NCBI GenBank assembly: GCA_051294375.1
Contig: CM119264.1
Coordinates: forward strand, 30,880,091-30,944,090
Reading direction: 5' to 3'
Source of the DNA: Paraspadella gotoi
Taxonomy: Eukaryota > Animalia > Chaetognatha
DNA length: 64,000 nucleotides
Below the pieces are notes generated by a model. That model ran no database searches. It was not told the origin of the DNA and was given only the letters and a program-made list of their open reading frames with translations. Numbering within the stretch: position 1 is the first letter of the stretch; every line of letters starts with the position of its first letter. This document shows positions 9,926 through 63,344 of this stretch, one piece after another. A program made the position numbers and the translations under genes.

Positions 9926-12900
9926 TATCGACGCCGTCTAGTGACATAATCAGTAAGTTTTATCGATGATAGGGTCTGTGTCATTGATGTCGTTTGTGAC
10001 ATTGGTTACTTCCATTTTTGTGTCATTACTGTATTTTATCTTTTGCCATTTGTGGCTTTTTTTCATTTGTGTCTTTTGTCATTTCATTTTTTTGTTCTTT
10101 TCATGTCATTTGTGAATCCCGGGTCATTTATTTTGTGAGTTTTTTATGTATGTATGTTTGTATGTATGTATTTAGGAAAGCGATTTGGGAAACAATGTTT
10201 ACGAATTTAGTCAGAATTTAATTAAACGTCGCTNNNNNNNNNNNNNNNNNNNNNNNNNNNNNNNNNNNNNNNNNNNNNNNNNNNNNNNNNNNNNNNNNNN
10301 NNNNNNNNNNNNNNNNNNNNNNNNNNNNNNNNNNNNNNNNNNNNNNNNNNNNNNNNNNNNNNNNNNNNNNNNNNNNNNNNNNNNNNNNNNNNNNNNNNNN
10401 NNNNNNNNNNNNNNNNNNNNNNNNNNNNNNNNNNNNNNNNNNNNNNNNNNNNNNNNNNNNNNNNNNNNNNNNNNNNNNNNNNNNNNNNNNNNNNNNNNNN
10501 NNNNNNNNNNNNNNNNNNNNNNNNNNNNNNNNNNNNNNNNNNNNNNNNNNNNNNNNNNNNNNNNNNNNNNNNNNNNNNNNNNNNNNNNNNNNNNNNNNNN
10601 NNNNNNNNNNNNNNNNNNNNNNNNNNNNNNNNNNNNNNNNNNNNNNNNNNNNNNNNNNNNNNNNNNNNNNNNNNNNNNNNNNNNNNNNNNNNNNNNNNNN
10701 NNNNNNNNNNNNNNNNNNNNNNNNNNNNNNNNNNNNNNNNNNNNNNNNNNNNNNNNNNNNNNNNNNNNNNNNNNNNNNNNNNNNNNNNNNNNNNNNNNNN
10801 NNNNNNNNNNNNNNNNNNNNNNNNNNNNNNNNNNNNNNNNNNNNNNNNNNNNNNNNNNNNNNNNNNNNNNNNNNNNNNNNNNNNNNNNNNNNNNNNNNNN
10901 NNNNNNNNNNNNNNNNNNNNNNNNNNNNNNNNNNNNNNNNNNNNNNNNNNNNNNNNNNNNNNNNNNNNNNNNNNNNNNNNNNNNNNNNNNNNNNNNNNNN
11001 NNNNNNNNNNNNNNNNNNNNNNNNNNNNNNNNNNNNNNNNNNNNNNNNNNNNNNNNNNNNNCCCAGGCGATCTCTCAACGCCGGCCGTCGCGGAATTCCT
11101 CGGCCTCTCTCCTTCGGACGAGCCGCTTGATCTCGACTTGAAGGATCTCGAGTCTTGGCTCATGACCGACCCTTTGGAAGGGCTCAGGGTCAAGCAGGTT
11201 GGGGTCAGTGGGTCAATGAGGGAGGGGCGAAAAGGGTCAGAAAAGGTCTGGGACTAATATACTATATGGAGGCCTTAAACCACCAAAGCCTGTCCAAAGT
11301 CAGGGGCAAGATAGCTTATTTATTAAATGAATGGATAATTTTTATATTGGTTGTACCAATTTCATATAAATATATATATATTGTCAAGCGTTAACGATGA
11401 AAGCTCATAATGTAGATCAGCAGTTCCTTCGCTTAGGGTTCAGGATCTGCCCACGGACTGGAATCCCGGACCTTAAAGTTGTAAAAGCGAATGTTTCGCC
11501 TTAAGGTCTAACAGTCGCTTGATTTAACGCCACCACAACGTAGTACTTAGTCCTTTTACACGACTGTATATAGAAACAATATACCACTTCGTTGATAAGC
11601 CAATGTACTTTGGCATTTAACAAACTAGACTGTGAATTGTGTGAGAGCGTATTGATTGAAAGCTTATCTTGTTAGCGTGCTAAAAGCCTTAAACCAGCTA
11701 AGCCTGTCCAAAGTCAGCTCATTTATGAAATGAATGGATTATTATAATATTTGTTATACCAATTTATAAGAATCTCGTGGGCTTACTATCTCTACTATCT
11801 CTACTATCTCTACACTCTTAGTTAATTGCCTTTCGATTACGTAAACTCTAGTTAATATTAATGGACTAAATGTTTTAATATTTTTCAGTCCGACGCCGAC
11901 GGCGGGAAAAAGGCTTCCGGTTGCGACGACGACGACGACGACNNNNNNNNNNNNNNNNNNNNNNNNNNNNNNNNNNNNNNNNNNNNNNNNNNNNNNNNNN
12001 NNNNNNNNNNNNNNNNNNNNNNNNNNNNNNNNNNNNNNNNNNNNNNNNNNNNNNNNNNNNNNNNNNNNNNNNNNNNNNNNNNNNNNNNNNNNNNNNNNNN
12101 NNNNNNNNNNNNNNNNNNNNGAGAGAGAGAGAGAGAGACACAAAGGAAATAATAAGCAAAAAAAAAATATTAATTTTTTTTTTATCGATGACTCGATTTT
12201 TTAAAATCCATCTAATCAACTCATCTAATCTAATTTCTGTATTAATCTAATCTTCTAATCTAATCGAATCCAACTTTAATCTTCTTCCCAGAATCGAAAA
12301 GTTCTTTGCGATCGAACATTTCCGATATTTTTGATTCGTCTAAAGAGAATCTCGTTGACTGCGATGGGTAAGTTATTACTTTGTCCTCAAGTTGAACTTA
12401 GCAAAATTATTTTGAACCAAACCCTACATTGCACTTACCCTCTCCAGTCCTTCAGCAACTTCGTCTCCGCACGACAAAGTCGTTATGCGTCGCGTGGAAT
12501 CGGAAAAGAACCGACCTCGGCACAAGACTTGCCCTTTGCCGCAAGGTGAGTCAATCTGTCGCAAGACTGGCCCTTTACCGCAAGGTGAGTCATCTTACGC
12601 AAGACTTGCCCTTTGCCGCAAGGTGAGTCAATCTTCCGCCAGAGAAGTCCCTCTGCCGCAAGGTGAGTCCCCATTTTTCAAAGAGTGATTCGATATATTC
12701 AGGTTAGTGTAAAAGTACTTAGTAGTAGTCACATTTTCCACCTCCCTCTTTCCGGTCCTCCCCCTAACACATTTTCCACCTCTCTTTCCGGTTCTCCCCT
12801 AACACATTTTCCACCTCCCTCTTTCCGGTTCTCCCCCTAACACATTTTCCACCTCCCTCTTTCCCAACCACTTTGTCTACCGGAAAAAAAATTAATCGAA

Positions 12901-15900
12901 TTTTTTGATCATCAAAGGAAAAAAAAAATAGGGTCCATTGATGAGTCAATTTTCTGAGGGGAAAAGATCTTTGGTGGTTTACCAAACTGGGGTCTGGGTC
13001 TTTATGGCCGGAAATATACTCTTATATTTTATATCTATATAAACATTAGTATTATGGTACAGTATTATAAGAAACATAATGGTGTTTGGTACTCTACTTC
13101 AATTAAAATCAATGTTTCGATACCATTTACAATTGGGGAATGGAAATTTTAACACATTGGTGAACTCGCAATCTCGTTATCTGAATACAATTTTTTAATC
13201 TGCAGCATACAATCTACATTCTACGTATATTCTAGCAACATTTTCATATCGATATTTTTCATTGTATTTATATATTCAACGAATTCTACGGTTTACTTTT
13301 TAGATTCTACATTTTTCTATTAACCTTTCAAAATGTACATTCTAATTTTAAAATCTACATTCTACAATTAACATTCTACATTCTCGCATCCACCTTTTTC
13401 AGAGGAGGAAACTGAGTTGAGCAAAATTCTGAAGCGAAGAAGCGAAACCATAGATTCTTTTGCGAATTCTTTGGAAGGAGGGAGTTTGGAGGAAAAGACG
13501 TGGGAAGAGATGGCTGCTTTGCAGGTGGGAACAGATGGGAACAGATGGATGATTTGCGGATGGGAACTGATGGGTAGAGATGGTGGTAACAGATGCTCGT
13601 TTTGATGGTGGGAAGAGATAAAATAGATTAGGTCATGATGGTATTTTAAGATATATGTATGGAGTAAAATGGTAACATAAAATCTTGATAATGTACTGCA
13701 AGATATTTTGAGAAGGAAAGAGAATAAAAGAAAGAAAGGAGGAAAAAAGGAGGAAAGAAGAAAAAGAAAGGAGGAAAGAAAGAAAGAAAAAAGGAAAGAA
13801 ACAAGGAAAGAAGAAAAAGGAAGAAAGAAAGAAAAGAAAAGAGGAAAGAAGAAAAATAAAGAAAGGAGGAAAGAAAGAAATAGAAAGGAGGAAAGAAATT
13901 AGGAAAGGAGAAAAGATTGTAGGAAAGAAAAAAGAAAAGAAAGGAGGAAAGAAAGGAGGAAAGATTGTAGGAAAGGAGAGAGGAGGAATGAGTGATTGTC
14001 GAGATAAAAGGAAAGAAATTCGTGGGCGGAATATCAGATGGAAAAAGGAAAAAGAAAGGAAAAGAAAAAGTAAAAGAAAAGGGAAAAGAAAAAAGGAGGC
14101 GGATTATTTCTACATAATTCTACCAAAAAAAGTTCGATAGGATAGACCTTGGGTTGAATTCGCGATGCAATGCAATGTTTTAGAAAATTATACATCAACT
14201 TTATTCAAATTAATTTTAAACTAAAGCTGTACATCCATCTAATCAAATTTATTAACGCTCAACCCTCAACCAAAAAATTCCCGAACCGGCATCCAATCAA
14301 ATGTGATTGCAATTTCATGCTTGCAATCATGATTGCTCCGACTGCTTTCCAACCCTCGCAGGAATTGGAGAACAAAATCCAGGCGATGAGGGAAGAGACG
14401 AAAGCTGAAAGAAAACCCAGGGATTTCGCGAAGGTAAATATATTTAAATACTAATGATATTTATGAATATTATTAAGATAAACATTATTAAGTTGAATTT
14501 AATAGGTATCAAATGTTAGTAGCTGCGAGAAGGCTGTGTAATGAAAAATTGAAAGTATCTCTACTAATAAAAGTAATCATTTCTACATTAATGACAATAA
14601 TTTTTCTGACAATTTATTAGTTAATTTTGTCTAGTTTTATTTTTTTTGTAAAGCTCCATTCGACGATTGTATTCGGAATTCTCTTATTTATCTCCTGTTT
14701 TTCTTTTTCCTCTGAATTAACTTCAGATTTTCTTCTTCTCTGTTTTTTGGTTGATCAATCGCCCACCCCCCCCACCTACCCCCCCCCCACGCGCTACCAA
14801 AGGTTTCGAATCTTATTATTTTTTTTTCTTTTGTTTTCTCTGAATATATCTCTCTTATTTCTCTTTCTTTTTTTCTATTAAGTATTAGGTTTTTTTAATT
14901 TTTCCCCTTTTCGTCTGCGTCATTGGTTTTCATCTTGTTTCGTCTCTGTTTTTCCTCCGTTTTCTCTCTTCCTCCTCGTTTTATTTCTGTCTTCATGTCT
15001 CTAACTACAGTTTCATTCCTTCTTCATTTCTCATTTCGTCTCAATTTCATTTTAAAATTTATTTTCTCTCTATTTCTATTTTTCTTTTCCTGAGCCAAAT
15101 TTTGATTCCATTTCAAACTTTCATTTGTTTCCAATTTTCTTTTTTTCTTTTTTTTCCTTCATTTTTCTTTTTCAAAGACAAAAGACGTTTTTGGCTTCAA
15201 AGGCGCAACTTGACTCTCTACTTCCTCATAGATCCGCCCATGAGGATTAATCCTGACGTTGACTCGGTTTAGTGATGACATTGACTTTGCTTAGACTTGA
15301 CTTTAACTTAAAATATCTCTATTCTCCATGCTCCCTTAATGCTATCAATTACATAGGGCAGTAGTCCTTTTATACAATTGAAACATTCTTTAAAACATTA
15401 TATAACTTCATTGATAGGAAAGCCTTTTACTCTGTGAGTGAATAAGCTAGAAAGAGTGAAAGTCTTGCTGGGTCCTGTTATGACATTATCTTGTAAGAGG
15501 GAGCCATAGTCAAAGCCAGGGGCAAGATAGCTTATTTATTTAATGGATGGATAATTTAAATATTGGATGTAACAATTTCATAAAACTTCACGGGACTCGC
15601 ATCTGAGTTGACTCGTCCTTTTTCTCACTTTCATTGGTTTGAATCCAACTTTCTCTCATCTAAACCAATGTTCTATTTATTTAATTTCCATCGAAGTTCT
15701 CTCTTTTTTCCACTGACAAAAAAATACTAATAAAATAAAATAAAACAACAATATCGTATAATATTATATTTATATATATATATATATGTCAGTGACTTCT
15801 TTAAAATTCCCTTTAATTCTTTTAAACTTTTCTTTTTATTTTTCGTTTTGTCTTTTTGTTTTCAGAAAAACGAAACAAATTCGATTTTCCACCACAAGAG

Positions 15901-15978
15901 GTCGTCGCAAGAATCGGAGGCTGATTCCCTGACGTCGACGCCTTTAAAAAGCGTCTTGAAGAAGTCCTCTGCTTTTGA

Positions 15979-16015
<37 letters not shown>

Positions 16016-16107
16016 AAGAAAGTGTGGTGTTTAAGAGTAAGAGCGGGATAGGGAATAGAGGAAAAGGGGTGGGGTAGAGGCAGGGTGAGGAGTTAAAGAG
16101 AGGAAAT

Positions 16108-16167
<60 letters not shown>

Positions 16168-16990
16168 ACACGCAGTGAGAGAGAGAGAAAGCGGGAGAAT
16201 GAAGTCATAAGAAGTTTGATGAGTTAAACTTAAATTTAAAAAGGTGAGTTTTTTGTTTAAGTGAGTGAAGTGGGAGACAAGAAAAGTCGTGATCGTCGTC
16301 GTCTTCATCGTCGTCGTCTTCATCGTCGTCGTCTTCTTCTTCGGATTCCGCATATTTTATTCCTTTTTTTTTTCTTGACCTTCTTTCGTATTTTTTTTCT
16401 TTCGTATTTTTTTTCTTCTTTCAATTTCTATTCATTTTATTATCTTCCTCGTTTCTTCCAATCTTTTTTTCTTGATCACCTTCATATATTCACTTTTCTG
16501 TATAGCTAAACTCTTGATTTAATTAATTTAATTCCATTTCTTTAACTTTTTTTCCCCCTCGCTTAGACTCACCTTTCTCCGCCTCCGCAGCCGCCGCCTC
16601 CGCAGCCGGCTCCATCGACTCTGACCAAGAAACTACCTCTTCCTCCGCCTCGAGCGCCACCACCGCCTTGAGCGCCGCCAATCTTGGCGCCGCCAGTCCT
16701 CTCGGCGCCGGCAGCGGTGCCAAGAAGAAAAACCTCTCCGTCTTCTCCGCCAAAACCGTCGCCGGTTTCGACGTCATGGCGCCGCAATTCCGCGCCGCGG
16801 GGATCGACTCGGCGTCGCAGCGCGGCGTCGCTGACGAGGATGTCTCAGCACCGCAGTTTGGCGCCGCGGACGTCGACGTCAGGGCGCCGGAGAAGCGGAC
16901 GACGCCGAAAAAAGCGACGAGGACGAAAAGCGATGGAATATTTGTCGCCGCTAGGAGCGAAGCGGCGCTGGACGTCGGACCGTTCGGAGG
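1562..16990 (+). CDS. 5' exons of a long multi-exon gene, low-complexity N-terminal region of the supervillin-like gene (begins upstream of or at window start)
   Basis: GT-AG bounded exons, mostly phase-compatible: 1562-1611, 1857-2003, 2695-2870 (noisy), ~6538-6743 (its 5' part present only inverted at ~3945-4130), 7251-7311, 8825-9009, 9511-9952 (SAAPLP repeats), 11067-11197, 11889-gap, 12292-12367, 12448-12545, 13403-13524, 14362-14433, 15866-15980 (TPLKSVLKKSS), 16567-16990. The phase-2 donor at 16990 matches the phase-2 acceptor at 23619. The link to supervillin rests on this splice continuity, not on a recognisable domain. Confidence 0.65.
2233..2643. mobile_element. ~410 bp intronic element with ~38 bp imperfect terminal inverted repeats, internal hairpins and a tRNA-like head (MITE/SINE hybrid candidate)
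   Basis: Left GTAGACCCCGGCCTTTAAGCATGTCACCTTCAGTCGTGAC (2233-2272); right end reverse-complemented GTTCACCCCGACTATAAGCATGATACCTTCAGTCGTGAC (2605-2643). Internal hairpins include GGAACACACCATCCCAGGCGTAGTGTTCC, CAGTGACTGGAGGCGTCACTG, GATGCCCCGTCCCAATGGGCATC and GGCAACCCGGCTGTTGCC. A noisy inverted copy lies at ~5497-5980. Confidence 0.7.
3940..6511 (-). repeat. Fold-back inverted duplication of ~1800-3940 plus ~200 bp of downstream sequence; probable chimeric-read artefact
   Basis: 4140-6511 is the indel-rich reverse complement of ~1800-3940. 3945-4005 overlaps, inverted, the sequence that resumes at 6538 after the 25-N gap. Confidence 0.9.
7479..7757 (+). mobile_element. tRNA-derived SINE-like element (CAT anticodon-like loop)
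   Basis: A-box-like TGCCTCGTTGG, loop CTCATGA, B-box GGTTCAATCCC (7542-7552), core AGGACCGCCGTAAACC and a (TTAGCTCTAATC)3 tail. Homologous segments occur at 2555-2620(-), 32425-32545(-) and 34883-34975(+). Confidence 0.65.
8250..8531 (-). repeat. Short fold-back inversion ending at a 25-N gap; probable artefact
   Basis: The purine-rich arm is a noisy reverse complement of the CT-rich tracts at ~8160-8250 and 8557-8635. Confidence 0.75.
10234..11061. other. Assembly gap (other gaps: 9120-9347, 11943-12120; 25-N gaps at 6512-6536, 8532-8556, 52949-52973, 61087-61111)
   Basis: N runs. Confidence 1.
11272..11780. repeat. Interspersed repeat family, here as two diverged direct repeats (11272-11366 and 11686-11780)
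   Basis: Both share GCCTTAAACCA..AAGCCTGTCCAAAGTCAG..ATTTAT.AAATGAATGGAT..TACCAATTT. A third copy is at ~15503-15598 (CAAAGCCAGGGGCAAGATAGCTTATTTATT) and a weaker one at ~43260-43320(-). Confidence 0.7.
12522..12670 (+). repeat. 38-40 bp tandem repeat x4 containing the exon 3' end and 5' splice site
   Basis: Unit CAAGACTTGCCCTTTGCCGCAAG|GTGAGTCAATCT; GT donors at 12546, 12585, 12623 and 12663. Confidence 0.9.
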
Positions 16991-17345
16991 GTGAGAAAGA
17001 TTTGCTTGAGGGATGCTTGGGTTTGTGCTTGGTTTTTATTTTATAATTGCTTGCTTTAGATAAAGATAGACGGAAAATAAAATAAGAATTCAAGATTTAA
17101 GTATATTTTAATTTAAATTTAATACCTTTTTAACAAGCTATTAATCACTTCCCTTTTTAATACCTTTTTAACAAGCTATTAACAAATTCAAAGTGATTTT
17201 TATCTTCTGTTCTTTTTTCACGTAATTTCTACATTAATTTGGCCCAAAATTTTTCTCTCGATGTTTGAATAAAAAGAGAAAACTTTAACTTAATCCAAAC
17301 AAAATTTTTCTCTCGGGGACGAAAAACATGTACCGATTTTATTTG

Positions 17346-17394
<49 letters not shown>

Positions 17395-17476
17395 TCTTCT
17401 CTACTCTCTCTCATCGCCGCTTGAGGAATTCTCCAGCTCCTGTTGCTCACCCTTGCGCAAACAGCGGCAGAAAGTG

Positions 17477-17547
<71 letters not shown>

Positions 17548-18203
17548 ACCCAATGAGCGCCACCGGAGATGGCATTTTTCGACCAATCAGCTTGTAAAAG
17601 AAAAAGACGATGTTGGGATTTTTTGCGTCAAAAACCTCGAAAACTCGTGATCCTGGTTAGAGTAAACCAGATAAAAATTGGAATAACAATTTTTAAATAA
17701 AAAAAAAACACGGACATTTTAAGAAATTACGACCCAAAAATATTTAAACTATTTCGCTAGAAGAAGTAAAAACTGTTGTTTCTAGAGAAAACTGTTTTGG
17801 AAACACGAAACTGTTTTCTTTTTATCCTGGTTTTCGTCGGATGTCAAAGAAGAAAACATTTCTCGATCGATCGTGAAAGATTGAAGCTCTTCCGTCTTCT
17901 GAGTGATCATCTTCTTGTGGTCATCTGTGATTCTTTCACAGTTCCATTCAGATGTGTGGCCTTCGTTAACTGAGTTTCTTTAAAAAAGAAAAAGATATTT
18001 CCTTAAATCATAATTATTAATTATTAGAACATTTAACTATCGCCATAAAAAAATTTTAAAAGAATTCGTTTTTTATTAATTATTTTTGCCGAAGAAATGT
18101 TAATATAATATAATGTTATTATAATGTTAATATAATGTTAAAATAAAAAAAAAAAATTTATACCCAATTTCGTGTTCAAACAATCGAATCGACATATCAG
18201 CGA

Positions 18204-19031
18204 ATGGAAACGACGCCGACCTTCGCATCGGCGCCGTGTCACGTGACCGCGCCGGGTCACTTTAACAATCCCCGTCACGTGACCCCTCCGGACAATCCGA
18301 TCACGCCTTCCGTTCACGTGACCCCGTCCGATGACGAATCGGCGTCATTTTCGGTTCCGTTCGACGGCGGAACAAAGACGAACGACGCCGCTTTTCAAAC
18401 CGGCGTCGATTCTTTCTCCGGCGCCACAATAGAATCCGGCGCCGGTTTCGTTTCTTCTTTTCGATGGACGCCGCGTCTTGGACGAGGGACGACGACGACG
18501 ACGACGACGACGGACCGTAATCACAATCTATTTTATTCGCAAAATAATCCGGAATATTTGCAAAATAATAAGAAAAATTCGCAAAATCGTTCTGAAAATT
18601 TGCAATATTCGCAAAATAACACGAAGATCGCGAACGGAGAGTCGCCGCTACGCAGAAAGACTTCCGCCAAAACGATCTCGGTCAAGGCGATCTCGTTAAA
18701 GCCGATTTCGATAAATCCGATCTCGCAAGACGCGGAAAAATCGTTAAACGAGTTTGATTCGGAAGCGAATGATGGGAGCGATGTGATTGGTTGCAGGAGC
18801 GGACAGGAGCGAGACCGCGGTGTAGCGATGAGTGGGGCGGAGGTGGGAACTGTGAACAATGTGGGGGCGGAGTCGAGGGCGAACGAGGTACGAATCGAAT
18901 CGAATTGGATGACGATGACGACGACAAAGATCATGACGATGACGAGGACAAAGATGACGATGACGACGACAAAGACGACGACGACAAAGATGACGATGAC
19001 GACGACAAAAATGCATCAAGATAAAGAATAA
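18204..19031 (+). CDS. 275-aa low-complexity ORF in intron 16991-23618; possible alternative exon
   Basis: GC-rich, exon-like composition with HVTP and YSQNN repeats, AG at 18199-18200, and a 3' part made of (GAC/GAT)n repeat. No phase-compatible splice partner was established. Confidence 0.4.
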   Translation: METTPTFASAPCHVTAPGHFNNPRHVTPPDNPITPSVHVTPSDDESASFSVPFDGGTKTNDAAFQTGVDSFSGATIESGAGFVSSFRWTPRLGRGTTTTTTTTDRNHNLFYSQNNPEYLQNNKKNSQNRSENLQYSQNNTKIANGESPLRRKTSAKTISVKAISLKPISINPISQDAEKSLNEFDSEANDGSDVIGCRSGQERDRGVAMSGAEVGTVNNVGAESRANEVRIESNWMTMTTTKIMTMTRTKMTMTTTKTTTTKMTMTTTKMHQDKE

Positions 19032-19162
19032 AAGATAAAATCCATCAGAGCACAAAGTTGATTTACTATTGTTTTAGTTTGGTTTTTTTTTCTTTCTACT
19101 ATGATAAAGATTGAGTGAGACAGAGAGCGATAGCGCCGTAAATGAGATGAGAGAAAGAAAGA

Positions 19163-19194
<32 letters not shown>

Positions 19195-19640
19195 AAGAGA
19201 GATAGAGAGAGAAAGGAATATCGAGAAAGATATAAATAGTGATTAAAAAAAAAATATAAAAAGGAGACAGAGAAAGAGAGAGAGGTTAGGAAAAGATAAG
19301 AAAGAGAGAGAGGTTAGGAAAAGATAAGAAAGAGAGAGAGGTTAGGAAAAGATGAGAAAGATACGTGTATTAAGGTGACCATTAATAATATTAATAATAA
19401 TAATAATAATATTAATAATATTAATAAGAAGTGATAGAGGAGAGAAAGAGTAAAGTGGGTTGGAAAAAAGGGAGGGACTTTCCATCAAAGAAGAAATAAG
19501 GAAGGAGGCGAGGGGAGGGGAGAGGCTTTCCGTCCGCATATCAAATCAAAGAAGACATTAGGATGGAGGCGGGGGAAAAAAAGCAAAATTTACCGGGCGA
19601 AATGTAATACAATTATTTTAATAAACTACAAACCAAATAA

Positions 19641-19680
19641 GCAATGAAGAAGACTTTTACAAAAGTCGAAACATGTATGT
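19641..19680 (+). ncRNA. Degenerate minimal type-I hammerhead ribozyme-like motif (Penelope-type)
   Basis: GCA-ATGAAGA-A-GACTTT(TACA)AAAGTC-GAAACATGTA-TGT: 6-bp stem II, GAAAC-AT-GTA with palindromic ACATGT, 3-bp stem I, C3 replaced by A. AATAAA follows within ~15 nt. Confidence 0.5.
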
Positions 19681-19859
19681 ATACTAACAATAAAAGTCGT
19701 TGTTGCACAAAGAAATTCTTTTCTCTCTAAATAAATGTAATAGTGACATCGCAGGAAATAATAATAATAATAATAATTTTTTTTAAATTATAAGTAATAC
19801 TACTAAATATCTCTAAAATTGTATAATTAAAAATATTTTTCTACTACTATGTACGATTA

Positions 19860-21677
19860 TGTACGACTATAAAATCCAAGACGACGACGACAACAACGAC
19901 ATCATCTTACTCCCCCCCCCCTTAACCCTCCATTCTCCTTCGAGTAAAAATCCCGGTTAACGACAAATTTCCTTCTTAAGAATTCCGCGCGATTTTCTCG
20001 GATTTCCGAAGAAAACTGCGTCCGGCGTTTCCAAGGAAACGGAGCCGGCGGTTACCAAGGAAGAGACGTTGGGAGTTGCCAAGGAAACCATAGTGACGAC
20101 GACGGGCGTTGCCAAGGAAACGACGCCGCTGGTTACCTCGGAAACTGTAACGGGCGTTGCCAAGGAAACCTTGCTTGTATTCACGAAGGAAGCCTAGCTA
20201 GCGGTCACCAAGGAAACAGAGCCGGCGGTTACCAACGAAGAGACGGCGGGCGTTGCCAAGGTAACGACGCCGGGCGTTGCCAAAGAAACGACGCCGGTGG
20301 TCGCCGTGAATACGACGCCGGTCGGAGCTTGAAAAAAGACGCCGTCGTCTTCGCCGGTCATGAAAACCAGGGCGTCGATCCTTTTGAAAACGACGACGAT
20401 AAAAGAGAGAGAGACTTAGAGAAAAAGTGGAGCATCCAGGATGCTGCAAAGGAGGAACTAGTTGCGGCAAAGAAGGGGAAGGTGGCAGTAAAGGAGGGGA
20501 AAGTTGCTGCTAAAGAGAGGAGAGTTGCGGCAAAGGAGATAGGAGCTAGAAAAGGAACGGCAGTGACTTCGAGAGAGCGAACTGTTGTTGCAAAGGAATT
20601 TTTAGGTTCAAAAAATAAAGTTGCTGCAGAGGAGTCTCTCCGGGAAAAAGCGATAAACGTTGCCGCGGTTAGTGTTGCTTCTAAGGACTTTGCTCTGCGA
20701 AAACGAAAACCTGAAGATTCGAATTCGACTTTTCAAATATTAAGGACGACGAAAACACGATTCACCGAAGGACGAATCACGAAAATGGAATCACGTGATG
20801 AAGAAATTGTGAATTCACGCGGTGAGAGAAGGGCGTGGCTCGTAGAGAATGGAAGGATGGAACCGACCGTAGCGTCGGCCGCCAAACTCTTTGAAGCGAA
20901 GAAAGGGCCGACGATCGAAACCGACAAATCGTTCGTCGATCGACCGGAAAGGATCGTCGACGATGGTTCGTCTTCCGAGTTGATCTTCGCTTCAAAGGTC
21001 GAATCCAGAATCAGCGTTAATTCGTTGAGACTCAAGTTTGAAGGAAAATCGAGGAAGAGATCGAAGATCGGTGACGACTGCATCACTCGAGCCTTTGAAG
21101 ATCCAAGTCCATCGTCGTCGTTTAGCTGCGACAGTAGTGATGGAACGGAGTCGTCTGTCACAAAGTCTCTGAACGAGCGTCATAAAGTTATGCCGAGGGC
21201 CTTTGTAAATGAGCCTTATCTGCCAGAAAATTATCAATTGCACAACAATTTAGCGAAACTATTCTCAAAGCAAAATAATTCCTCAAAGACTTCTCTAATT
21301 TCTGACAGTCATTGGCTCAAATATTCTAACACCACTCTTGTTCATTCTCATCATGAATCGACCGCAACCATGAACTCAATTATCGATAACGAACGTGAGG
21401 TTTTGCCAAAATCGTCATTGAGCTCTAATCCATTAACGACAGTTGATCAATTTCAAACAACTTCACTCACCGCTTCTTGGATTCATGACCTCGAGCCTCC
21501 CTCCTCGAGCAGCCTTCGCTCCGATGGCCGAATTACTACGATCCCATCTTTAAAAGTGGGTGACGCCACAACAATTAGATTTCGTGCCGCTTCGATAACA
21601 GGAGTCGAATCGATGGCTTGGCGTCACCGGCGCCAGGATGAGAATTGGTCCAGCGAGCGGGGATTGAAGGATGAGAG
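19860..21677 (+). CDS. Large (~1.7-1.8 kb) alternative or first exon of the supervillin-like gene
   Basis: 450-aa ORF 20329-21681, preceded by GVAKET-type coding repeats (20020-20310) broken by apparent indel errors. It ends at GAG AG|GTGAGT (phase 2), compatible with acceptor 23619. The 5' boundary is uncertain. Confidence 0.55.
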
Positions 21678-22776: not shown

Positions 22777-22822
<46 letters not shown>

Positions 22823-29948: not shown

Positions 29949-29987
<39 letters not shown>

Positions 29988-42445: not shown

Positions 42446-42478
<33 letters not shown>

Positions 42479-53347: not shown

Positions 53348-54353
53348 ATATCAAACCCAAACGAGTATTACTTTCGACGAGTCTTCCTCGAAAGCCGAAC
53401 CTACTTCCACGCGGCCTCTCTCGAGCCTTCGGCCCTTCAACAGCCCCTTCAACAGCCTTCACCCAGCCCCCTCGAAACCCTCTCGAACCTTTTACTCATC
53501 CTTCTCCACAGCCTTCTCTACAGCCCTTACAACAGCCATCTCCTGAGCCGTCTCTATTTTTTTCACAGCCCTCTTCTCCCTCGCCACAGCCTTCACTACA
53601 GCCTTCGCAACAGCCCTCTCCACAGCCTTCTCCTCCTTCACAACATCGACTAGATTCTGAGACGGAAGCAAATATTTTAATCACTTCATCAATCGCTACA
53701 TCAGACGCTACATCAAAGTCATCTTCTCCAGCAACATCAATTGCTCAACCGCAGCCTCTACATCATCCTCCTCTTCAGTCACTACATCATTCTCTTCCTC
53801 CTCTCAGCGCTGAACCGATCGCCGCTCCTCCACTTCGTTCGTCCGAGGGGAAAGGCGATCGTCGCGAGGGGAAAGGCGATCGTCGCGAGGGGAAAGGCGA
53901 TCGTCGCGAGGGGAAAGGCGATCGTCGCGAGGGGAAAGGCGAAGACGACGACAACAACAAAATTAGCAGCTTGGATCTCAGAACAAATTCAGAGGCGAAA
54001 TCTACGACGAAATCTACGACGAATAATGCGACGAAATCTACAGCGAATTCCGTGACGAGATCCAAATTTCATTCGGTCGACGACGACGACGACGACGACG
54101 ACGTTTTTTGTGACGACGACGACGACGATCGATCCATCGAGATCAAAGGCGAATTCGTCGTTGGAGAAAATCAGACCACTTCAGCCCCGCCCACTTCAGC
54201 CCCGCCCACTTCAGCCCCGATCACTTCAGATCGACGCCAGCGTCGCGAAACGCGTGACTCTTCGTCGTTCCGTCAGCGACGTCACTTCCGGTCTCAGACC
54301 CGCCCTCGCCGTCGTCATGGCAACACTCTCGCGTCCTCTCTCATTCAGGATCG
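53348..54353 (+). CDS. SVIL: Supervillin-like ~1 kb exon (QPS and EGKGDRR repeats; ends SLIQDR)
   Basis: TTCAG|ATATCAAACC to GATCG|GTAAGA. The phase-2 join to 61259 gives IQDR|LKALKTNGENDWKNR (cf. SVIL IKERLALLKKSGEEDWRNR). Contains at least one frame-breaking error. Confidence 0.8.
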
Positions 54354-54504
54354 GTAAGAGAGATCGAAGAGAGACGGTGGTAAGGCTTCCTCGTCCGAGC
54401 CGGGATGTCCAATCAATATTTCGTAAATATTGATATGTCTTCTGTCTTCTGAAACCAATATAGTATAATTCTTTTATAATTTTTAAGGAAGGTAGGTGGT
54501 AGTA

Positions 54505-57500
54505 ATCTAAAAATCACGTTTGACTACCACCTACCTTCCTTAAAAATTATAAAAGAATTATAATATTGGTTTCAGAAGACAGAAGACATATCAATATTTA
54601 CGAAATATTGATGGACATCCCGGCTCGGACGAGGAGCCTTACCACCGTCTCTCTTCGATCTCTCTTACCGATCCTGAATGGAGAGAGGACGCGAGAGTGT
54701 TGCCATGACGACGGCGAGGGGGGGTCTGAGACCGGAAGTGACGTCGCTGACGGAACGACGAAGAGTCACGCGTTTCCGCGACGCTGGCGTCGAATCTGAA
54801 GTGATCGGGGCTGAAGTGGGCGGGGCTGAAGTGGGCGGGGGCTGAAGTGGGCGGGCTGAAGTGGTCTGATTTTCTCCAACGACGAATTTCGCCTTTGATC
54901 TCGATGGACTCGATCGTCGTCGTCGTCGTCACAAAAACGTCGTCGTCGTCGTCGTCGTCGACCGAATGAAATTTGGATCTCGTCACGGAATTCGCTGTAG
55001 ATTTTCGATTTCGTGTAGATTTCGCCTCTGAATTTGTTCTGAGATCCAAGCTGCTAATTTCGTTGTTGTCGTCGTCTTCGCCTTTCCCCTCGGGACGATC
55101 GCCTTTTCCCTCGCGACGATCGCTCTTCCCCTCGCGACGATCGCCTTTCCCTCGGACGAACGAAGTGGAGGAGCGGCGATCGGTTCAGCGCTGAGAGAAG
55201 GGAAGAGAATGATGTAGTGACTGAAGAGGAGGATGATGTAGAGGCTGCGGTTGAGCAATTGATGTTGCTGGAGAAGATGATTTGATGTAGCCTCTGATGT
55301 AGCGATTGATGAAGTAATTAAATATTGCTTCCGTCTCAGAATCTAGTCGTGTTTGTGGAGGAGAGAAGGCTGTGGAGAGGGCTGTTGCGAACTGTAGTGA
55401 AGGCTGTGGCGAGGGAGAAGAGGGCTGTGAAAAAAATAGAGACGCTCAGGAGATGGCTGTTGTAAGGGCTGTAGAGAAGGCTGTGGAGAAGGATGGTAAA
55501 AGTTCGAGAGGGTTTTCGAGGGGGCTGGGGTGAAGGCTGTTGAAGGGGCTGTTGAAGGGCCGAAGGCTCGGAGAGAGGCCGCGTGGAAGTAGGTTCGCTT
55601 TCGAGGAAGACTCGTCGAAAGTAATACTCGTTTGGGTTTGATATCTGAATGAAAAGTGGAGGTTAGAAAACGGCACACGGAGGGGGGGGGTGGGAAGGAA
55701 GAGAGAGGAAAGGAGAAGGATAGAGGAGGATAGAGAGGTAGGAGGATGTAGGAGGAGCAGAGGGAGGAGGTTAGTGGGAGAAGAGAGATGAAGGGGAAGA
55801 AAGGAGGGAACCAAAAGAGCAGCAGGGAGGAAGAAGGAAGAAAGAAGGAAAAGAAAGAAGGGAAAGAAAGAAGAATGAGCAAAGAAAAAAAAAAGGATGA
55901 GAGAAAGTGAGAGAGAGGTGAGAGTCAGTTAAGCAGCGGATTAATGCGAGATGGTTTTTTGGCAAAATTTCGTCAAAACAAAACCAAAGAAAAAACCGGC
56001 AAAAAAAAAAAAATAACAAAGGGAATCGAGAAAAAAAATTCGTCGCTCGAATGAATCTTTATGTCAGATTTTTGAGAAAAAATTTTACGAGTAAAAACAA
56101 CAATTTTGAGATTTTGAAAAAGGTAAAAAAAAAATAGAAAGAAAGGCGAGATTGAAAACAAATTAAAAGGGAAAAAGGCTAGATAGAAAAGGATAGAAAA
56201 GGATAGAAGCAGATAGACAAGATAAAAATATTCCTGGGGAAAGAAAATTCCTATATTCGGATTTGATGAAAAACGGATTTATTATTTCTCTCGCTCTCCT
56301 AACTTTTGCCCCCCGCGCTCGAAAAGAGAAATCCTAAAAAAAGCGAATCCCGCAGGCGTAACTTTATTTTATGTTTCATGTTTTATTTTATTTTTAAAAA
56401 TGTGGAAACTTTCTTCAAAAGTTAAAACAGAGCTAAAGTTGTTAACGTTTTCAAAACTCATCCATTTTTGACAATAATCTGTTTTTCGTCGCGCTGTTTT
56501 TAAAATTATTTCTTTTTTAAATCGTAATGAAAAAAACTTTTTTTTTTAAAGTTTGTGATTGTTGTTTGTTTTCGGTCTTGAACCCGAGACTTGAACCCGA
56601 AACTTTTTGAACCCAACCGAGATCGGACGCTCCTTTCTCGTTAATTCGAACCGACAAGATTCGATTCGTTATAAACGAACTTGGCTAAAACCGAATTACG
56701 CGTAGAGAGAGAGAGAGATAAACTTGATCGAGGTTAAGAGAAACAAAAGGGAGAGAGGGAAGGGGGGGAATGGGTTGGGTGGGGGGGTGGAAATAGCGTC
56801 GATTGAAAAATGAGAAGAAAGGAAAGAACAAGCAAGTTTTTGGTCTTACGCCGAAGCGACTTCTGAGTGTGCATTGTGTGTACTACGCCCTCCAGTATAA
56901 ACTCCACTATGCCTCCAGCATGAACCCGTCACGAATGAAGTATAAAATAATATGCACAGAAGTTTAATGATATTCACTAAAATTAAACAGCGTTTAGTGA
57001 ATTATGCTGAATTTTAATTTCAGAAGTGATTGACTTTTCACATCATCTGACTGCACAATTAAGTATCTAATCGTAGGTCACCCTGCTACCATGTTTCAAC
57101 TAAAATGATAGAGTATTAACAGACAGACGGACGAAGACGGACGAAACAGACAGACCGACCCACAGACTATTGGCGCAAACTTAAAAATGGCAAAGTATTA
57201 ATGTAAAATAATAAAAGTGATAGATAGAACTTCGGTTTTCATCTTGAAAGAGAGAATGCAGAGTGAATCTGATAAAAAGGTGAAAGTTCACTCAGAGATC
57301 AGAGAAGAAACGTTTTCATTGTGCCCGACGGTTATGGGGCAAATTTAATACATTAGGTTTTAGAATTTGGCGTTACTTATTCTACAATTTACAATCAAAT
57401 ATATTCAAGGGAAGGCGATTATTCAATTACTGAGCTATTCATTAACAAACGCAGAATTATAAAAAAACATATGAAATTCACGTAATAACTCAACAAACAA

Positions 57501-59232
57501 ACAAAAAAATATATAACATGTGAATAAAAAAAGATAAAATCTTAACAAAAAAGAAAAGAGAAACGAGATTTAAAAGGAAGAAAAAACAAACGGAGACAAT
57601 AAGAAACAGGATCAAAGCTTTTTTTCTTTGTTCACAGAATGAAAGAACTAATGACAAACGAATGGAAGTTTCGTTAAATTAAACTAATAAAATTAAGTTA
57701 ATATTGATATAGAAAAACATCGATTTGGGAAACAGTGCTAATTTTATTAAATTTTTATAAAATTTAGCACTGTTCCCAAATCGATGTTTTTCTATATAAA
57801 CTACTCGGTGCATGAGATGACACTTAACAAACAAGTTAAATATTATTATCAACAGGACATGAGGAACATATGAAGCATCGATTAGGTAAGTTTAACAAGA
57901 TATTTTTTAAATCTCAAAAACTAAAAAAATTCTAAAATTAAACTCGGAGAAAAGAAAAGTGACTAAGAGAAAGAAATTTAGGAGACTTGAATCGAGTATC
58001 TATCATCAAGGGTCTCTCTCTCTGTCTCCCTCCACACCACAACAACCCCCAACACTCCCTTAACATTCCATCCCTTAAACAAATTTAAATCCGTTCAAGA
58101 TTTGAAATGAGATGACGAGGTTCCAGTTTTGAGATAAAAAATCAGACGAATGATAAGAAACAGATGAATCATTGAGAATCAGACAATTTCTTTTAAAAAA
58201 TTCCTTAAGGGTATTCCATATTTATTTATATTTATTTTTATCTTAAATCGTCTTTTTAAATCTAATTCGCACACTGCAGTTAACTTCTCTGGCAAAAAAT
58301 AATAATCTCAAGTGTAGTCTTAATTTTGCCGTCAGTAGCAAAAAATTTAAATTAAATTTTGAACCACCGGGAAAAATAATAAAGAGTGCTTGATTGAAAA
58401 CTTATAGGGACCTGCGATGTTATTATAATAAATTGAATGCGTAATTTTCATATTGTTGTACCAATTTCGTACTAAACTTGGATTTTAGAAACTAGGATTT
58501 TTTAAATTCAAGGACTGAAGATTCGACACTCGAATCATCGGCGTCAAAAACTCAAAGAGGAAATTTTAAGACAAAAGATCGAATTTCTTATGTGACGTCA
58601 AACTCATTTGAATTTTGGCTTTTAAGGTTTTAGGGATAAATTTTCGATCCTAATTGACTTTGACCGGAACCTGAGGATTTTGGACCGAGAATGACCCCGA
58701 GTGGACCTTATCGGACACTAATGAACCTAAGTAGACTTGAGCCGACCTTGAACAGTGCGGCTATTCCTTTGTTTCGTAGTCAAAAAAAATAGTTGAAACT
58801 AAAGATTAAGGAAAAACAAATACTACAAGTTCTTTTCCAATTTTGTTTTTCGTTTTATATTTTTTCTGTGATAAAATAATAAACCGAAAACGAGCGAATT
58901 ATTTTCTTTCTTTTTTGTGAAAAGAGAAAAATATGATTTGAGATCGAAATTCATTGCGGTTTTTTTCCTATTCTTCCTTTTTCCATTCGGGTCAATTTTC
59001 ACACGAAGCGAAAAAAGATCACAACCCAATTTCTTCTTCCGTCGAGAGAAATTTTCTTAAGCCTTTTTTTTGGGGTGTTCACAATTATTATTATATTTTT
59101 GTTTTTCGTCATGAAAATAATTACGAGGCGTCTTGAAAATCTTTGTCTCTTTCAAATACATTTTTTTCCTCAGTTAAAAATTTTCAATTAACAATTTATC
59201 GTCGCTATTGTTTCATATCCGCTTTGGCCTCG

Positions 59233-59268
<36 letters not shown>

Positions 59269-61086
59269 TCCGGACATTTAGATCCATAATTCAATCGAAT
59301 TTCTAAGATCTTAAGATCGACGGCCAAGTTATAATTGATAAGCGTCGCCTTTGAAACGAAACATGAATGAGTCAAACCGACACAACATTTTTTTTCGGGA
59401 ACTTTATCTTCAAATTCGGTTTAATTTTAAGTGTTTTGGCTGATTCTTCTTCGAGTCTGTCCGTCTGTCCGTCTGCTCGTCAGTTCGTCGGTTCTAAGTG
59501 TCCGTCTCTCCGGTCCAGTAAGTTCCAAATCGACTTCCGATGGAAATGACAATAACAGATCTCATTTTCAATTTACTCTAGTTTCATTGTTCCAAAGTAG
59601 ATCACTACTCTCCACTCGCTCTCTCTGCTCTATCTCTCAACACTAAGTTTTCGTTTGACTGTTATTTATATTTTTTCCCCCCTTTTTATTATAAATACAG
59701 TAAATAAAAATGAAAAAACACAGAAAAATGGAAAAGAAAAAAAAAATAAAAGGACGTAAATTGACTCAAAGAATCAAGAAAGTAAAACCGATTATTCTCG
59801 AGATTAAGTCAGGGAAAGACAGAAGAGCGAGTCAAAGAGAGAGAGAGTCGAAGAACTTTAAACAAACGAGACTGGCGACAACTTTTTTTCTTCATTTTTT
59901 GCCCCAATTTCCTTTTTAAGGAAAAAAAAAGAAAACCCCGGGAGAGATCGAATTAAAAATAAAAAAAAGAAGAAAAAATATCTAAATCCGAAAAAAAAAA
60001 TGCTGTAAAAACTGAGCTTATCTCTGGAGGTCTTAAACAGCACGAAGCTACGACCTCCCTGAAGTCTTTCGATTATACCACCACTCTATCTCCCCCCCCA
60101 ATGCTCCTTATAGAAAGAGAGAGAGAGACACCGTGCCTTCTGGGCTGCGGGAGTTTCGCTCGTCCTTGAAAGAGGCCGTCGACTGGCGAGTCCCAAGGTC
60201 GCGTTGATCGTCAGGATGTTAAACCAGTTGGAAGAGACCATTTTTAAAAGACTAAGTTGTATCTATGTTAATTGTATTAATTTTAGTATTTCATCTCAGT
60301 ATATTTAAATATTAATTCAAATTGCAGACAGCCGGAGAAAGCTTTTGTTTAAAAACAATTATTTTAACGGATATATCGATTAAATCCCGATTAGGCGAGA
60401 ACAAAGTCAGGATACGTTTGAGAGAACAAGTTATGTATATATCTTAGTTCAGATTACAAGCAAACGAGAACAGTTTTTATTTAAATTCATTTTACAAGCT
60501 TGACACGAGATGAACAAACCGTCGTTTTAAAAACTATTTCAGGATTGTGGAATCGAGGTTGTAATTATTATCTCAAGACGTAAAAGGTTTTTTTAAATGT
60601 ACTTCTAAATGGCTGAGCTATGTATAAAAGATTCCATTGGCGATTAAAAAAACTTTATTTCAATTGCAAGGCCATGAATTGTTTATTGTTGACTGTCACC
60701 TGGATTAATTAATAACGGGCGACGACGACGACGACAATAAGAACAAGTAGACAACGAAATGGACAAAATAGTTACGATGATGCCGAAGAAGAAATGACGA
60801 CGACGAGGATTTTGTAATCGGTCGGTTGTCTTTTCAGTCGTTATCGTCGTCGTCATCGTCATCGTCTTTAAAAACAGTTTTTACGAGAGCAGACGATGTC
60901 GATTGTAAAGATGTTTTTAGTTTGTGATGGAACCGATGTGGATGGCAATGAATGGAAATAAGGCATGCACTCTTGATGTTAAATTTAAAAATTTTTTTAG
61001 GGCAAGAGTCAGCGTGGAAATATAATTTCTAATAGAAAAACAACTTTTTTCTTTCATAAAGTTAAAATAATTAATCATTGGGTTTT
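54505..61086 (-). repeat. Fold-back inverted duplication of 52974-54503 and 40605-45340; probable artefact
   Basis: Hairpin apex at ~54503-54522 (GGAAGGTAGGTGGTAGT..ACTACCACCTACCTTCC). 56400-61086 is the reverse complement of ~40605-45340. The arm ends at a 25-N gap. Confidence 0.9.
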
Positions 61087-61258
61087 NNNNNNNNNNNNNN
61101 NNNNNNNNNNNTTGACTTTGTCGTGCGGTTTATTTTAATTCTTTTTTTTTTGTGTGTGAAATCTTTCGCTGATAGATTCGCAACTAAATTTTATTTCGTT
61201 GCTATTTTGTTGTTTCTCATTTTTTTCCAATCCCCCGCCTGCCCTCTATCGTCCGCAG

Positions 61259-63344
61259 CCTGAAAGCTTTGAAAACAAATGGGGAGAACGATTGGAAGAA
61301 TCGAGTTTCTCCGCAGAGAAGTTTGAGTTCCTCGGAAGGCGGAGCCAGTGATTCGCTGAGAAACGTGAGTTTTTTTTTGGGAGGGGGGGGAAGAATGAGA
61401 TAGGAGAGAGGGAGGAAGAGGATAGGTGGAGGAAGAAGAGAGAAAAAAGATGAGAAAAGGAAACAAAGAAAAGTTAACTAAATAAATAAAATGAATAAAA
61501 ATATAAGGAAAGGAAGTGAAATAAAAATCGAGGGAAAACAATAATGGAAGGAGACCTTAATATAACAAAAAGATGAAAGGTAAGGGTTAACTTACCTCGG
61601 ATTCCGTTTTTCCTTCTTCCAGTCTCCCGGCGGAAGTCCAGCGCCTTCAGGCGGTCGACGACCCGTTTCACTCGCGGATCGACTCAACCTCCTTCAAGAG
61701 GCACAGACTGGTGAGGGGTGGAGATGATGATGATGATGATGATGGTCACGATGATGATGATGATGATGATGGTCACGATGATGATAGTGCGTGATGATTA
61801 TGACATAGCGATCATGATGACTTTAGGATAACTATGATGGCATGATAATAATAAGGCGACATATCGATGAAACTGACTTTCAAACGTTGATTTAACACTT
61901 TAATCTATAACACAGTTCTTATGAATTTGATGTTGGAAAAGATTTTATGTATTTTATCAGAGATCAAAATTAATTTCTTCTAAACTCACTTTTACCTCTG
62001 CCCTCCCTCGTACCTTTCACACTTCACATTCCCTTTCCCACCCACCCCCCCCTCTTTCTCACAGGCTGGAAATCCCGCGTCACGGAATCCGACGCCAAAG
62101 AATTCACAGTCGCAGGAAAACTGGAAAGAGCGGGAATCCAGGTGTCGCCCTTATCGCAGAGGAAACGCGCCATCGGAAGAGCATCGATGCGGCGTCAGGT
62201 GTGAAAGAGAATTGGGAGAGAAAGATGGGACGATTTCGGGCAATAGTTGTGAGGATGTTAGGACGCATTAGAAAATGCCATTGGGAGAGCATCGATGCGG
62301 CGTCAGGTTAGGTGGAGGAGTTGCAAAAAGAGTTTGGGGCAGGGTAGCTCATATTAGAGTATTCATGTGTTGGAGGGATGTTGCAATGCATTAAAGAAAT
62401 GGGGCTAGGTGTCGGTATTGATGCATTATGGCGATGTCTTGATTTAAGGTGTGATACGTTCATGCGATTTGTTGGATGTTGTGATACATTTTATTATATT
62501 TTATTATTACACATTACTTGACCGTATTTAAAATGATGCTCCGTAACATTTTCAAAGCGGATTATTTATATGGTTGAAAAGAGGTTGTTTAATTTTGTTA
62601 CCGTTTGTCTGGTAAATGAGAACTTAAACTAAACGGTTAGATCTTATTCATTCAATCAGATATTTTATTTCATATAAAACTGTTAAAATTAACTCGCTTC
62701 GTAACATAAAAACTTTGTTTTAAAAGGCGACAGAGAACCATTAAGTTTTGTTTTCAAATATTATTTCCCCATAATATTATCGGGTTTTAATTCCGTTTTA
62801 GAAAACCTGTCCAGAGGGATCCCTTTCCGCTATCCTAGTAAGAATCCATTCTCGCCAAATTCTGACCCCTTTAATGTTCTTTGTCCCTTTCAATGTCCTT
62901 TGTCCTTTTCATTGTTTTTTTTGCCCCTTGGTGATTCGAACCCCAAAAAATATTTGTGTGATTCTTTTTAAGTGAGAGGGGAAAAAATGAAAGACTTAGT
63001 TTTATTTTTTTCTTTCCACAAAAATTCCTCGGTGTTTGGTTTCTTAATAACTTTTGTCCCCCAGTTTGCAAAAAAAAATCAAAACAAAACAAGCGTACAA
63101 TATTTATATTTTTTCATCAGTTGACTGTTTTTTGTATAAAATAAAATAATAATAAATGTCTTTTGTTTTTTTTTTCTTTCAGCATCAAGGGATGACCGAC
63201 AGCAGCGGCACCGACGACGGAGACAAAGAAAACGACACCAAAGATGAAACAAAAGATCTCGGGTTCGAATCTCGGCCGAGATCATCGACTGAAGGGCAAT
63301 TGGGAGCGAGAGAGAGAGACGAGGAGGAATTCTCCCTCTCTGAC

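What the first reader, a model, noticed from the sequence alone, without database searches (positions are those of the whole stretch)
12522..62310. Splice junctions are recurrently tandem-duplicated ('stuttered' splice sites) in two unrelated genes
Seen: at roughly ten junctions the repeat unit is the exon edge plus its GT or AG site. Donors: 12522-12670 (x4), 13521-13600 (CAGGTGGGAA/CAGATGGGAA), 27268-27480 (x6), 32592-32736 (x~12), 34560-34610, 35050-35101, 47513-47860 (x4-5), 62168-62310 (x2). Acceptors: 32838-33545 (x7), 35221-35411 (x5), and weakly 8700-8824. Units are unrelated in sequence and length (10-130 bp), so this is not a transposon family. The copy contiguous with the exon body keeps the frame, and copies tend to decay into the intron. 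Known: duplication of AG|GT-containing sequence is a proposed route to intron gain and intron sliding. Inference: this lineage may have a junction-focused duplication process (for example co-transcriptional, R-loop or spliceosome-linked slippage) together with a strict exon-proximal site choice, or use the arrays as decoy or alternative sites. I know of no description of this at such density.
Basis: partly seen in the sequence, partly recalled or inferred. Interest (0 to 1): 0.8.

Follow-up and report, generated by a model that had tools for sequence, protein, structure and literature searches.

The report
Splice-site "mirage" repeats in two genes
Seven exon edges in two genes have been copied head to tail, splice signal included, into the neighbouring intron, a known repeat type called a "mirage"; at the two edges checked in RNA only the original signal is used, and the copies are likely harmless by-products of a genome that duplicates short stretches often, probably most often in and beside exons.

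Summary
Real, but a known kind. DNA contigs of two further samples carry the 12523 and 13501 arrays, and one spliced RNA contig set uses only the first donor at both. The arrangement matches amphioxus "mirages" (PMC3087553) and the human F7/CBS/LMNB2 VNTRs (PMC1557585). This scan has noted it before in other genomes. About 17% of the window is tandem repeat. Per base, junctions are not enriched (7 of 94, background 12.5%). Per array, spanning arrays are 8 against 3.2-5.8 expected (p 0.01-0.19 by null). The firmer signal is broader: arrays crowd the junction zone whether or not they cross it (23 of 60 against 7.7-10.7; 21 of 46 against 12.7 within introns). Coding arrays are frame-filtered (20 of 22 are multiples of 3). 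Best reading: short duplications arise often over exons and their skewed flanks, and those at edges survive. Acceptor choice, genome-wide enrichment and the organism are untested. Gene names are recalled.

The parts
12523..12669 (+). Donor mirage: 39-nt unit (about 22 exon + 17 intron) x4; real donor after 12545
   Evidence: RNA joint 12545 to 13403 uses copy 1 and DNA contigs hold the copies
13501..13583 (+). Donor mirage: 35-nt unit x2.4; real donor after 13524; second copy has lost its GT
   Evidence: RNA contig leaves at 13524/5 into the exon at 14362; X7 and X8 contigs span it with 0 differences
27267..27482 (+). Donor mirage: 34-nt unit x6.4; modelled donor after 27289; every later copy would read a stop
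   Evidence: not tested in RNA
32601..32736 (-). Donor mirage: 12-nt unit (4 exon-side + 8 intron) x11; modelled donor after 32733; later copies in frame and stop-free
   Evidence: not tested in RNA
32838..33550 (-). Acceptor mirage: 82-133-nt units, 7 AG copies; fills 94% of intron 32882-33592; modelled acceptor before 32881
   Evidence: not tested in RNA
35221..35409 (-). Acceptor mirage: 39-nt unit (15 intron + 24 exon) x4.8, 99% matches; modelled acceptor before 35244; every copy in frame and stop-free
   Evidence: not tested in RNA
47537..47854 (-). Donor mirage: about 80-nt unit (59 exon + 22 intron) x4; modelled donor after 47796; lies in an inverted, indel-rich copy of the large gene
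1012..1096 (+). Probable additional donor mirage, 25-29-nt unit x3; donor after 1016 inferred
   Evidence: junction copy only 13/20
62168..62310 (+). About 32-nt exon-end + GT echo 108 nt downstream; not head to tail; same locus as about 49840-49990 on the minus strand
34560..34615 (-). Weak donor echo: 11 nt repeated 23 nt into the intron
35054..35102 (-). Intronic 16-nt array starting at the GT; abuts the donor, no exon part
8685..8800 (+). Intronic 23/46-nt array ending 24 nt before the acceptor; no exon part
26857..27169 (+). Example of an abutting array: 20 nt x16, fills 90% of a 349-nt intron, 17-19 nt from both ends
881..64000 (+). Large multi-exon host gene, supervillin-like (name recalled from motifs, not confirmed by a tool); its later exons are also present as an inverted copy at about 47267-52198 on the minus strand
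   Evidence: three joints confirmed in RNA; Pfam scans of single exons gave no credible family
30490..36052 (-). Eight-exon gene nested antisense in intron 30061-38044; PCED1/FAM113-like (name recalled)
   Evidence: exon 32136-32265 has two unnamed relatives at 79-81% identity

Best explanation
These are minisatellites whose unit straddles an exon-intron boundary ("mirages"), likely left by a general, high rate of short tandem duplication that is probably concentrated over exons and the first 40 or so bases of introns, and likely kept because the copy joined to the exon body still gives the original mRNA. Steps: (1) shown: the window is rich in minisatellites of unrelated units. (2) Shown: coding arrays are frame-filtered, intronic ones are not. 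(3) Shown in this window, modest: arrays crowd the junction zone, crossing it or not. (4) Inferred: births are about as frequent over exons as at edges and 4-5 times rarer deep in introns, tied to GC-rich, strand-skewed DNA; a first duplication is then expanded by slippage or unequal crossing-over. (5) Shown for two donors in one RNA contig set: the most upstream donor is used, as in human F7. (6) Inferred: the exon-contiguous AG is used at the acceptor arrays.
For: 16.8% of non-N bases lie in TRF arrays. Multiples of 3: 20 of 22 exonic arrays against 18 of 52 intronic. Arrays per kb of collapsed opportunity: exon 2.6 raw (7.9 if tripled for lost frameshifting units), spanning 5.0, abutting 6.2, further than 25 nt 1.4; for arrays with 80% or more matches 1.6 (4.7), 4.0, 5.8, 1.0. 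Spanning or within 25 nt: 23 of 60 against 7.7 uniform, 9.7 GC-matched, 10.5 GC+skew-matched; 21 of 46 against 12.7 within introns, p 0.002; 17 of 26 against 9.3 for score 80 or more. Spanning given nearness is at chance. Outside arrays the sense-strand GC skew is +0.57 just after donors and -0.51 just before acceptors, fading over about 100 nt; the near arrays mostly share that skew. RNA uses copy 1 at 12545 and 13524 and has no cover at 12561-12664. Precedents: PMC1557585, PMC3087553, PMC3902484.
Against: GC and skew matching removes only part of the near-junction excess (23 against 10.5-12.2), so composition is not the whole cause. The x3 correction for exons assumes coding repeats arose like intronic ones; many lie in long low-complexity exons, match at only 61-76% and may be kept by selection. 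For complex or long-unit arrays, spanning alone stays mildly in excess (7 of 27 against 3.5, p 0.03; 7 of 18 against 3.3, p 0.02), which a junction-specific process would also give. The 25-nt cut-off was chosen after seeing the data: within introns the abutting excess is absent at 10 nt (5 against 3.1) and 60 nt (15 against 13.6). Many nulls were tried without correction. One window, two genes, hand-made models in an assembly with errors.
Confidence: 0.65

Rival explanations
1. A splicing- or transcription-coupled process (R-loop, polymerase pausing or nicks at exon edges) makes duplications preferentially at or next to splice sites.
For: The near-junction excess survives GC, skew and within-intron controls. 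Spanning arrays are 2-3.5 times expectation in some subsets. Both donors and acceptors are affected, in two genes on opposite strands. PMC3087553 calls the mechanism of mirage generation unclear.
Against: Spanning is not favoured over abutting. Under the strictest nulls spanning is 8 against 5.7-5.8, p 0.15-0.19. Exon bodies hold as many arrays once frame filtering is allowed for. Nothing here marks an RNA intermediate: copies keep intron sequence and lie in place.
Confidence: 0.17
2. No real rate difference: arrays arise evenly in a repeat-rich genome with short introns, and the crowding comes from retention (G-rich repeats tolerated after donors, pyrimidine-rich ones before acceptors, unique intron DNA deleted around old arrays) and from repeat calling on skewed sequence.
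For: Per-base test shows no excess at junctions (7 of 94 against 12.5%; GC-matched 14.4 expected). Median modelled intron is 500 nt. Locally shuffled windows give 12-22 TRF rows at period 10 or more, a few of them scoring 80 or more. Some arrays fill their intron to both ends.
Against: The per-base test is biased against enrichment because expanded copies inflate the background. The excess is stronger for complex, high-scoring arrays (14 of 18 against 6.8). Several near arrays are young (89-99% matches).
Confidence: 0.12
3. The arrays are kept for use as alternative or decoy splice sites that add short peptide repeats.
For: At 3 of 7 arrays (12545, 32732, 35244) later copies are in frame, stop-free and score like the real site. 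Human 6-16 and CBS use one or two extra copies (PMC1557585).
Against: RNA contigs show only copy 1 at 12545. Units of 34, 35 and 104 nt shift the frame; 3 of 7 in frame is what chance gives. No conservation data.
Confidence: 0.04
4. The arrays are artefacts of long-read or gap-filling errors in the assembly.
For: The window holds inverted, indel-rich duplicates and 25-N gaps. The 47537 array lies in such a copy.
Against: Contigs of X7 and X8 carry the 12523 and 13501 arrays; a 35-nt contig in X4 has about twice the flanking depth (157 against 82). Copies differ by substitutions.
Confidence: 0.02

Closest known systems
Amphioxus 'mirages' (Adh3, globins BflGb6 and BflGb9, troponin C, PGBD5); passages of PMC3087553 and PMC3902484 read; the original Adh paper was not held
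   Same: Minisatellite-like tandem copies of an exon-intron boundary, at both 5' and 3' boundaries; units 10-160 nt; 81-100% identity; many but not all copies keep GT or AG; edge copies escape homogenisation; normal splicing reported.
   Different: Here 7-8 of 94 junctions in two neighbouring genes of an organism I could not identify. The passages I read give single-gene cases and no enrichment test. Length polymorphism and somatic instability were not tested here.
Human F7 IVS7 37-bp VNTR and the CBS IVS13, 6-16, LMNB2 and PDGF minisatellites; PMC1557585 abstract, passages and Discussion read
   Same: First unit spans the exon-intron border; identical downstream donors stay silent, even in-frame ones; the most upstream donor is chosen.
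   Different: Human cases are isolated loci and donor-side. 6-16 and CBS also use one or two extra copies, which was not seen here at contig resolution.
CBS 844ins68; passage in PMC2630376 read
   Same: Duplication of an intron/exon junction where the distal, exon-contiguous site is strongly favoured and the mRNA is normal; the model for the two acceptor arrays.
   Different: A single two-copy insertion; acceptor use here is untested.
Intron gain by tandem duplication of AGGT-containing exon sequence; PMC4974935 and PMC3443670 seen only as search listings; PMC2812944 passages read
   Same: Tandem copies that hold splice signals; the units at 27289 and 32732 contain AG|GT.
   Different: These arrays extend existing introns; no new intron or shifted boundary was found.

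Membership tests
Mirage (exon-intron boundary minisatellite) | Head-to-tail repeats whose unit holds exon and intron sequence with the splice dinucleotide | tested here: met
   7 arrays; 4 other listed sites fail or are marginal
Mirage (exon-intron boundary minisatellite) | The spanned boundary is a real splice junction | tested here: met
   RNA joints at 12545 and 13524; the other five rest on reading-frame models
Mirage (exon-intron boundary minisatellite) | Minisatellite-size units, unrelated between loci, 5' or 3' boundary | tested here: met
   units of 12 to about 130 nt; 5 donors and 2 acceptors
Mirage (exon-intron boundary minisatellite) | Normal splicing is not disturbed | tested here: inconclusive
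   true at 2 of 2 donors in one contig set, which drops rare forms; acceptors not tested
Mirage (exon-intron boundary minisatellite) | Copy-number instability between alleles or cells | tested here: inconclusive
   contigs of three DNA runs fit the same copies at 12523-12813, but no piece spans the whole array
[quoted passage not shown] | Downstream copies are functional and take over when the first is mutated | not testable with these tools
   needs minigene mutagenesis; copies score the same as the real site
Intron gain by tandem genomic duplication | A new intron whose two ends come from duplicated exon sequence | tested here: not met
   all arrays run from one exon edge into an existing intron; none of the 94 junction 20-mers matches the opposite end of its intron
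Transposon or introner family | Related elements at dispersed sites | tested here: not met
   units differ in sequence and length; self-BLAST hits of 150 nt or more link no two arrays

The most novel reading that the evidence does not exclude
In this lineage short tandem duplications are born several times more often within about 40 nt of splice sites than composition predicts, through a splicing- or transcription-coupled lesion. Mirages would then be the visible edge of a mutational hot zone that builds intron ends, lengthens introns from their edges and seeds in-frame alternative splice sites genome-wide.
Probability: 0.2. Interest if true: 0.65.

Novelty: new member of a known kind. Interest (0 to 1): 0.3.

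Why it matters
The structure is known. What this window adds is a measured hint on a point the mirage literature leaves open: where such duplications arise. Repeats crowd the junction zone about twofold after the strictest control, but crossing the junction is not favoured, which points to an exon-centred rate plus a frame filter rather than junction targeting. The in-frame, identical copies (39 nt x5 acceptor, 12 nt donor, 39 nt donor) are clean natural tests of splice-site choice outside mammals, especially on the acceptor side, where scanning would predict the wrong AG.

Tried and rejected
No whole genome is held, so no genome-wide test. No run is on record as RNA; X5 was a guess that proved spliced. 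The central arrays could not be read against runs (laid nothing), so both acceptor arrays and donors 27289, 32732 and 47795 are untested. Gene naming by tool failed: Pfam on 3 and 11 single exons gave one sub-threshold hit; a homolog search with one exon found none among 78 candidates; another found two unnamed proteins without accessions; PDB search gave only E 0.04 or worse, judged chance; the atlas did not complete; the representatives job had not finished at submission. The per-base enrichment test was set aside as the main test because array expansion inflates its background. For statistics I dropped 4146-6511, 52947-64000 (second copies) and, in the event tests, the first 700 nt; a stricter set also dropped 17480-19944 and 39200-47100; the within-intron tests used 42 introns with both ends modelled and left out the 8-kb host intron. 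Exons in N gaps, at 17.4-19.9 kb and at 45.2-46.6 kb are missing or uncertain. Place and sequence look-ups in earlier findings were empty. Literature searches found no genome-wide count of mirages. No supplementary files were read; those of PMC3087553 may bear on unit identities.
Full report
Setting. The window is eukaryotic DNA with short introns (median 500 nt over 43 modelled introns), exons at 55% GC and introns at 39%. Tandem Repeats Finder covers 16.8% of non-N bases. Self-BLAST shows large inverted duplicates at 83-97% identity with many gaps, which I read as assembly artefacts; 62168-62310 and about 49840-49990 are one locus. No whole genome is held. I modelled two genes by hand: a large plus-strand gene whose later exons also appear inverted at 47267-52198, and an eight-exon minus-strand gene nested in its intron 30061-38044. 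They resemble supervillin and PCED1/FAM113; both names are recalled from motifs, and no tool confirmed them. The organism is unidentified.

Observation. Of 94 modelled junctions, 7 have a local copy of the junction 20-mer at 16/20 or better: donors 12545, 13524, 27289, 32732, 47795 and acceptors 32881, 35244. The other four are an 11-nt echo (34603), two intron-only arrays beside the junction (35054-35102, 8685-8800) and a non-tandem echo of about 32 nt (62198). TRF adds 1012-1096 over an inferred donor. Most extra copies keep GT or AG and score like the real site on a matrix built from this window. The outermost copy is often the most diverged, but decay is not monotonic.

Reality and use. 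Contigs of four runs were laid on 12145-13700. DNA runs X7 and X8, samples other than the possible source X4, carry the 12523 array in pieces and span the 13501 array without differences. Run X5 shows two GT..AG joints (after 12367 and after 12545) and a loose end at 13525 that is the start of the exon at 14362. So the first donor is used at both arrays, and X5 has no cover at 12561-12664. The +39 and +117 copies at 12545 are in frame and stop-free, so nonsense decay does not explain their absence; positional choice does. Contigs drop rare forms and this is one run. The other five arrays were not tested in reads (laid nothing).

Is it more than chance? Per base, no: 7 of 94 junctions against 12.5% of all non-microsatellite positions, with 14.4 expected after GC matching; the duplicated fraction rises from 3-5% in the exon interior (30-100 nt from the edge) through 7% at the junction to about 20% in the intron flank. 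That test is biased against enrichment because expanded copies swell the background, so I collapsed each array to one unit and placed it at random. Among 60 non-exonic arrays (unit 10 nt or more, score 50 or more), 8 span a junction against 3.2 (p 0.012), 4.7 GC-matched (p 0.08) and 3.9 GC+skew-matched (p 0.03); on stricter territory 5.8 GC-matched (p 0.19). Placed only within their own intron, 8 of 46 against 5.7 (p 0.15); for complex units 7 of 27 against 3.5 (p 0.03). Wholly intronic arrays within 25 nt of a junction are 15 of 52 against 4.2-6.1 and 13 of 38 against 6.8 within introns (p 0.004), but show no excess at 10 or 60 nt. Together: 23 of 60 against 7.7-10.7, 21 of 46 against 12.7, 17 of 26 against 9.3 for high scores. 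Given nearness, crossing the junction is at chance (8 of 23 against 10.1; 8 of 17 against 8.3). The cut-off was post hoc, many nulls were run, and locally shuffled windows yield 12-22 TRF rows, so some low-scoring arrays are noise.

Mechanism. Exonic arrays are multiples of 3 in 20 of 22 cases, intronic ones in 18 of 52, which shows a frame filter. Arrays per kb are 2.6 in exons (7.9 if tripled), 5.0 spanning, 6.2 abutting and 1.4 deeper in introns. Intron ends are strongly skewed even outside arrays, G-rich after donors and C-rich before acceptors. I infer that duplications arise at a similar high rate over exons and their flanks, that frameshifting ones inside exons are purged, and that those crossing or touching an edge survive because one copy reproduces the old mRNA. 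Later expansion by slippage or unequal crossing-over is inferred from general knowledge of minisatellites and PMC3087553. Composition matching leaves about a twofold excess unexplained, and the tripling for exons is crude, so a splicing-linked cause stays open (0.17), as does retention bias (0.12).

Known relatives. Amphioxus mirages are tandem copies of 5' or 3' exon-intron boundaries that do not appear to disturb splicing, with an unclear origin (PMC3087553 passages; PMC3902484 passage; the name came to me from earlier scan notes). Human F7 IVS7 shows exclusive use of the most upstream donor, including over in-frame copies, and the paper lists CBS, 6-16, LMNB2 and PDGF (PMC1557585 abstract, passages, Discussion). 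CBS 844ins68 is the acceptor-side case (PMC2630376 passage). The arrays here meet the structural definition of mirages. They do not meet that of intron gain or of a mobile family. Searches found no genome-wide count, but this scan has noted dense cases in several other genomes (unchecked notes).

Verdict. Observation partly confirmed; interpretation partly supported; new member of a known kind; interest 0.3. The part worth following is the near-junction crowding of all minisatellites and the acceptor arrays as tests of splice-site choice.

Noticed in passing
window 26857-27169 and 32838-33550: Single arrays fill 90% and 94% of their introns, leaving little more than the splice signals.
   Followed up: partly
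intron ends throughout the window: Strong sense-strand GC skew outside arrays: +0.57 in the first 25 nt after donors, -0.51 in the last 50 nt before acceptors. (GA)n or (TC)n runs also sit within a few bases of several junctions (6 of 24 short-period arrays within 25 nt against 1.9 expected).
   Followed up: partly
window 30490-36052, minus strand: A whole eight-exon gene nested antisense in an 8-kb intron; its first exon reads GAS where I recall a GDS catalytic motif in PCED1 proteins, and its last exon encodes a long Ser/Thr/Pro-rich tail with in-frame repeats.
   Followed up: partly
window 1795-6511, 40605-64000: Inverted duplicates at 83-97% identity with many indels, next to 25-N gaps; likely mis-joined haplotypes or uncorrected long reads.
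   Followed up: partly
window 13009-13430: A low-depth (4.3) contig of the RNA run covers the intron end and exon start: retained intron, precursor RNA or DNA carry-over.
   Followed up: no
before window 12292: The RNA contig continues into sequence whose tested motif is absent from the window, probably an exon end hidden in the N gap 11943-12120.
   Followed up: partly
window 17404-21677: Several large, apparently skippable exons (frames also join 16990 to 23619); 19950-21690 is 99% held by the RNA run. Possible alternative exons or starts.
   Followed up: no
window 62168-62310: A 32-nt exon-end echo placed 76 nt past the original looks more like a templated insertion than a tandem unit.
   Followed up: partly
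all modelled exons: CpG observed/expected is 1.34 in exons and 0.82 in introns, so no sign of methylation-driven CpG loss in these genes.
   Followed up: no
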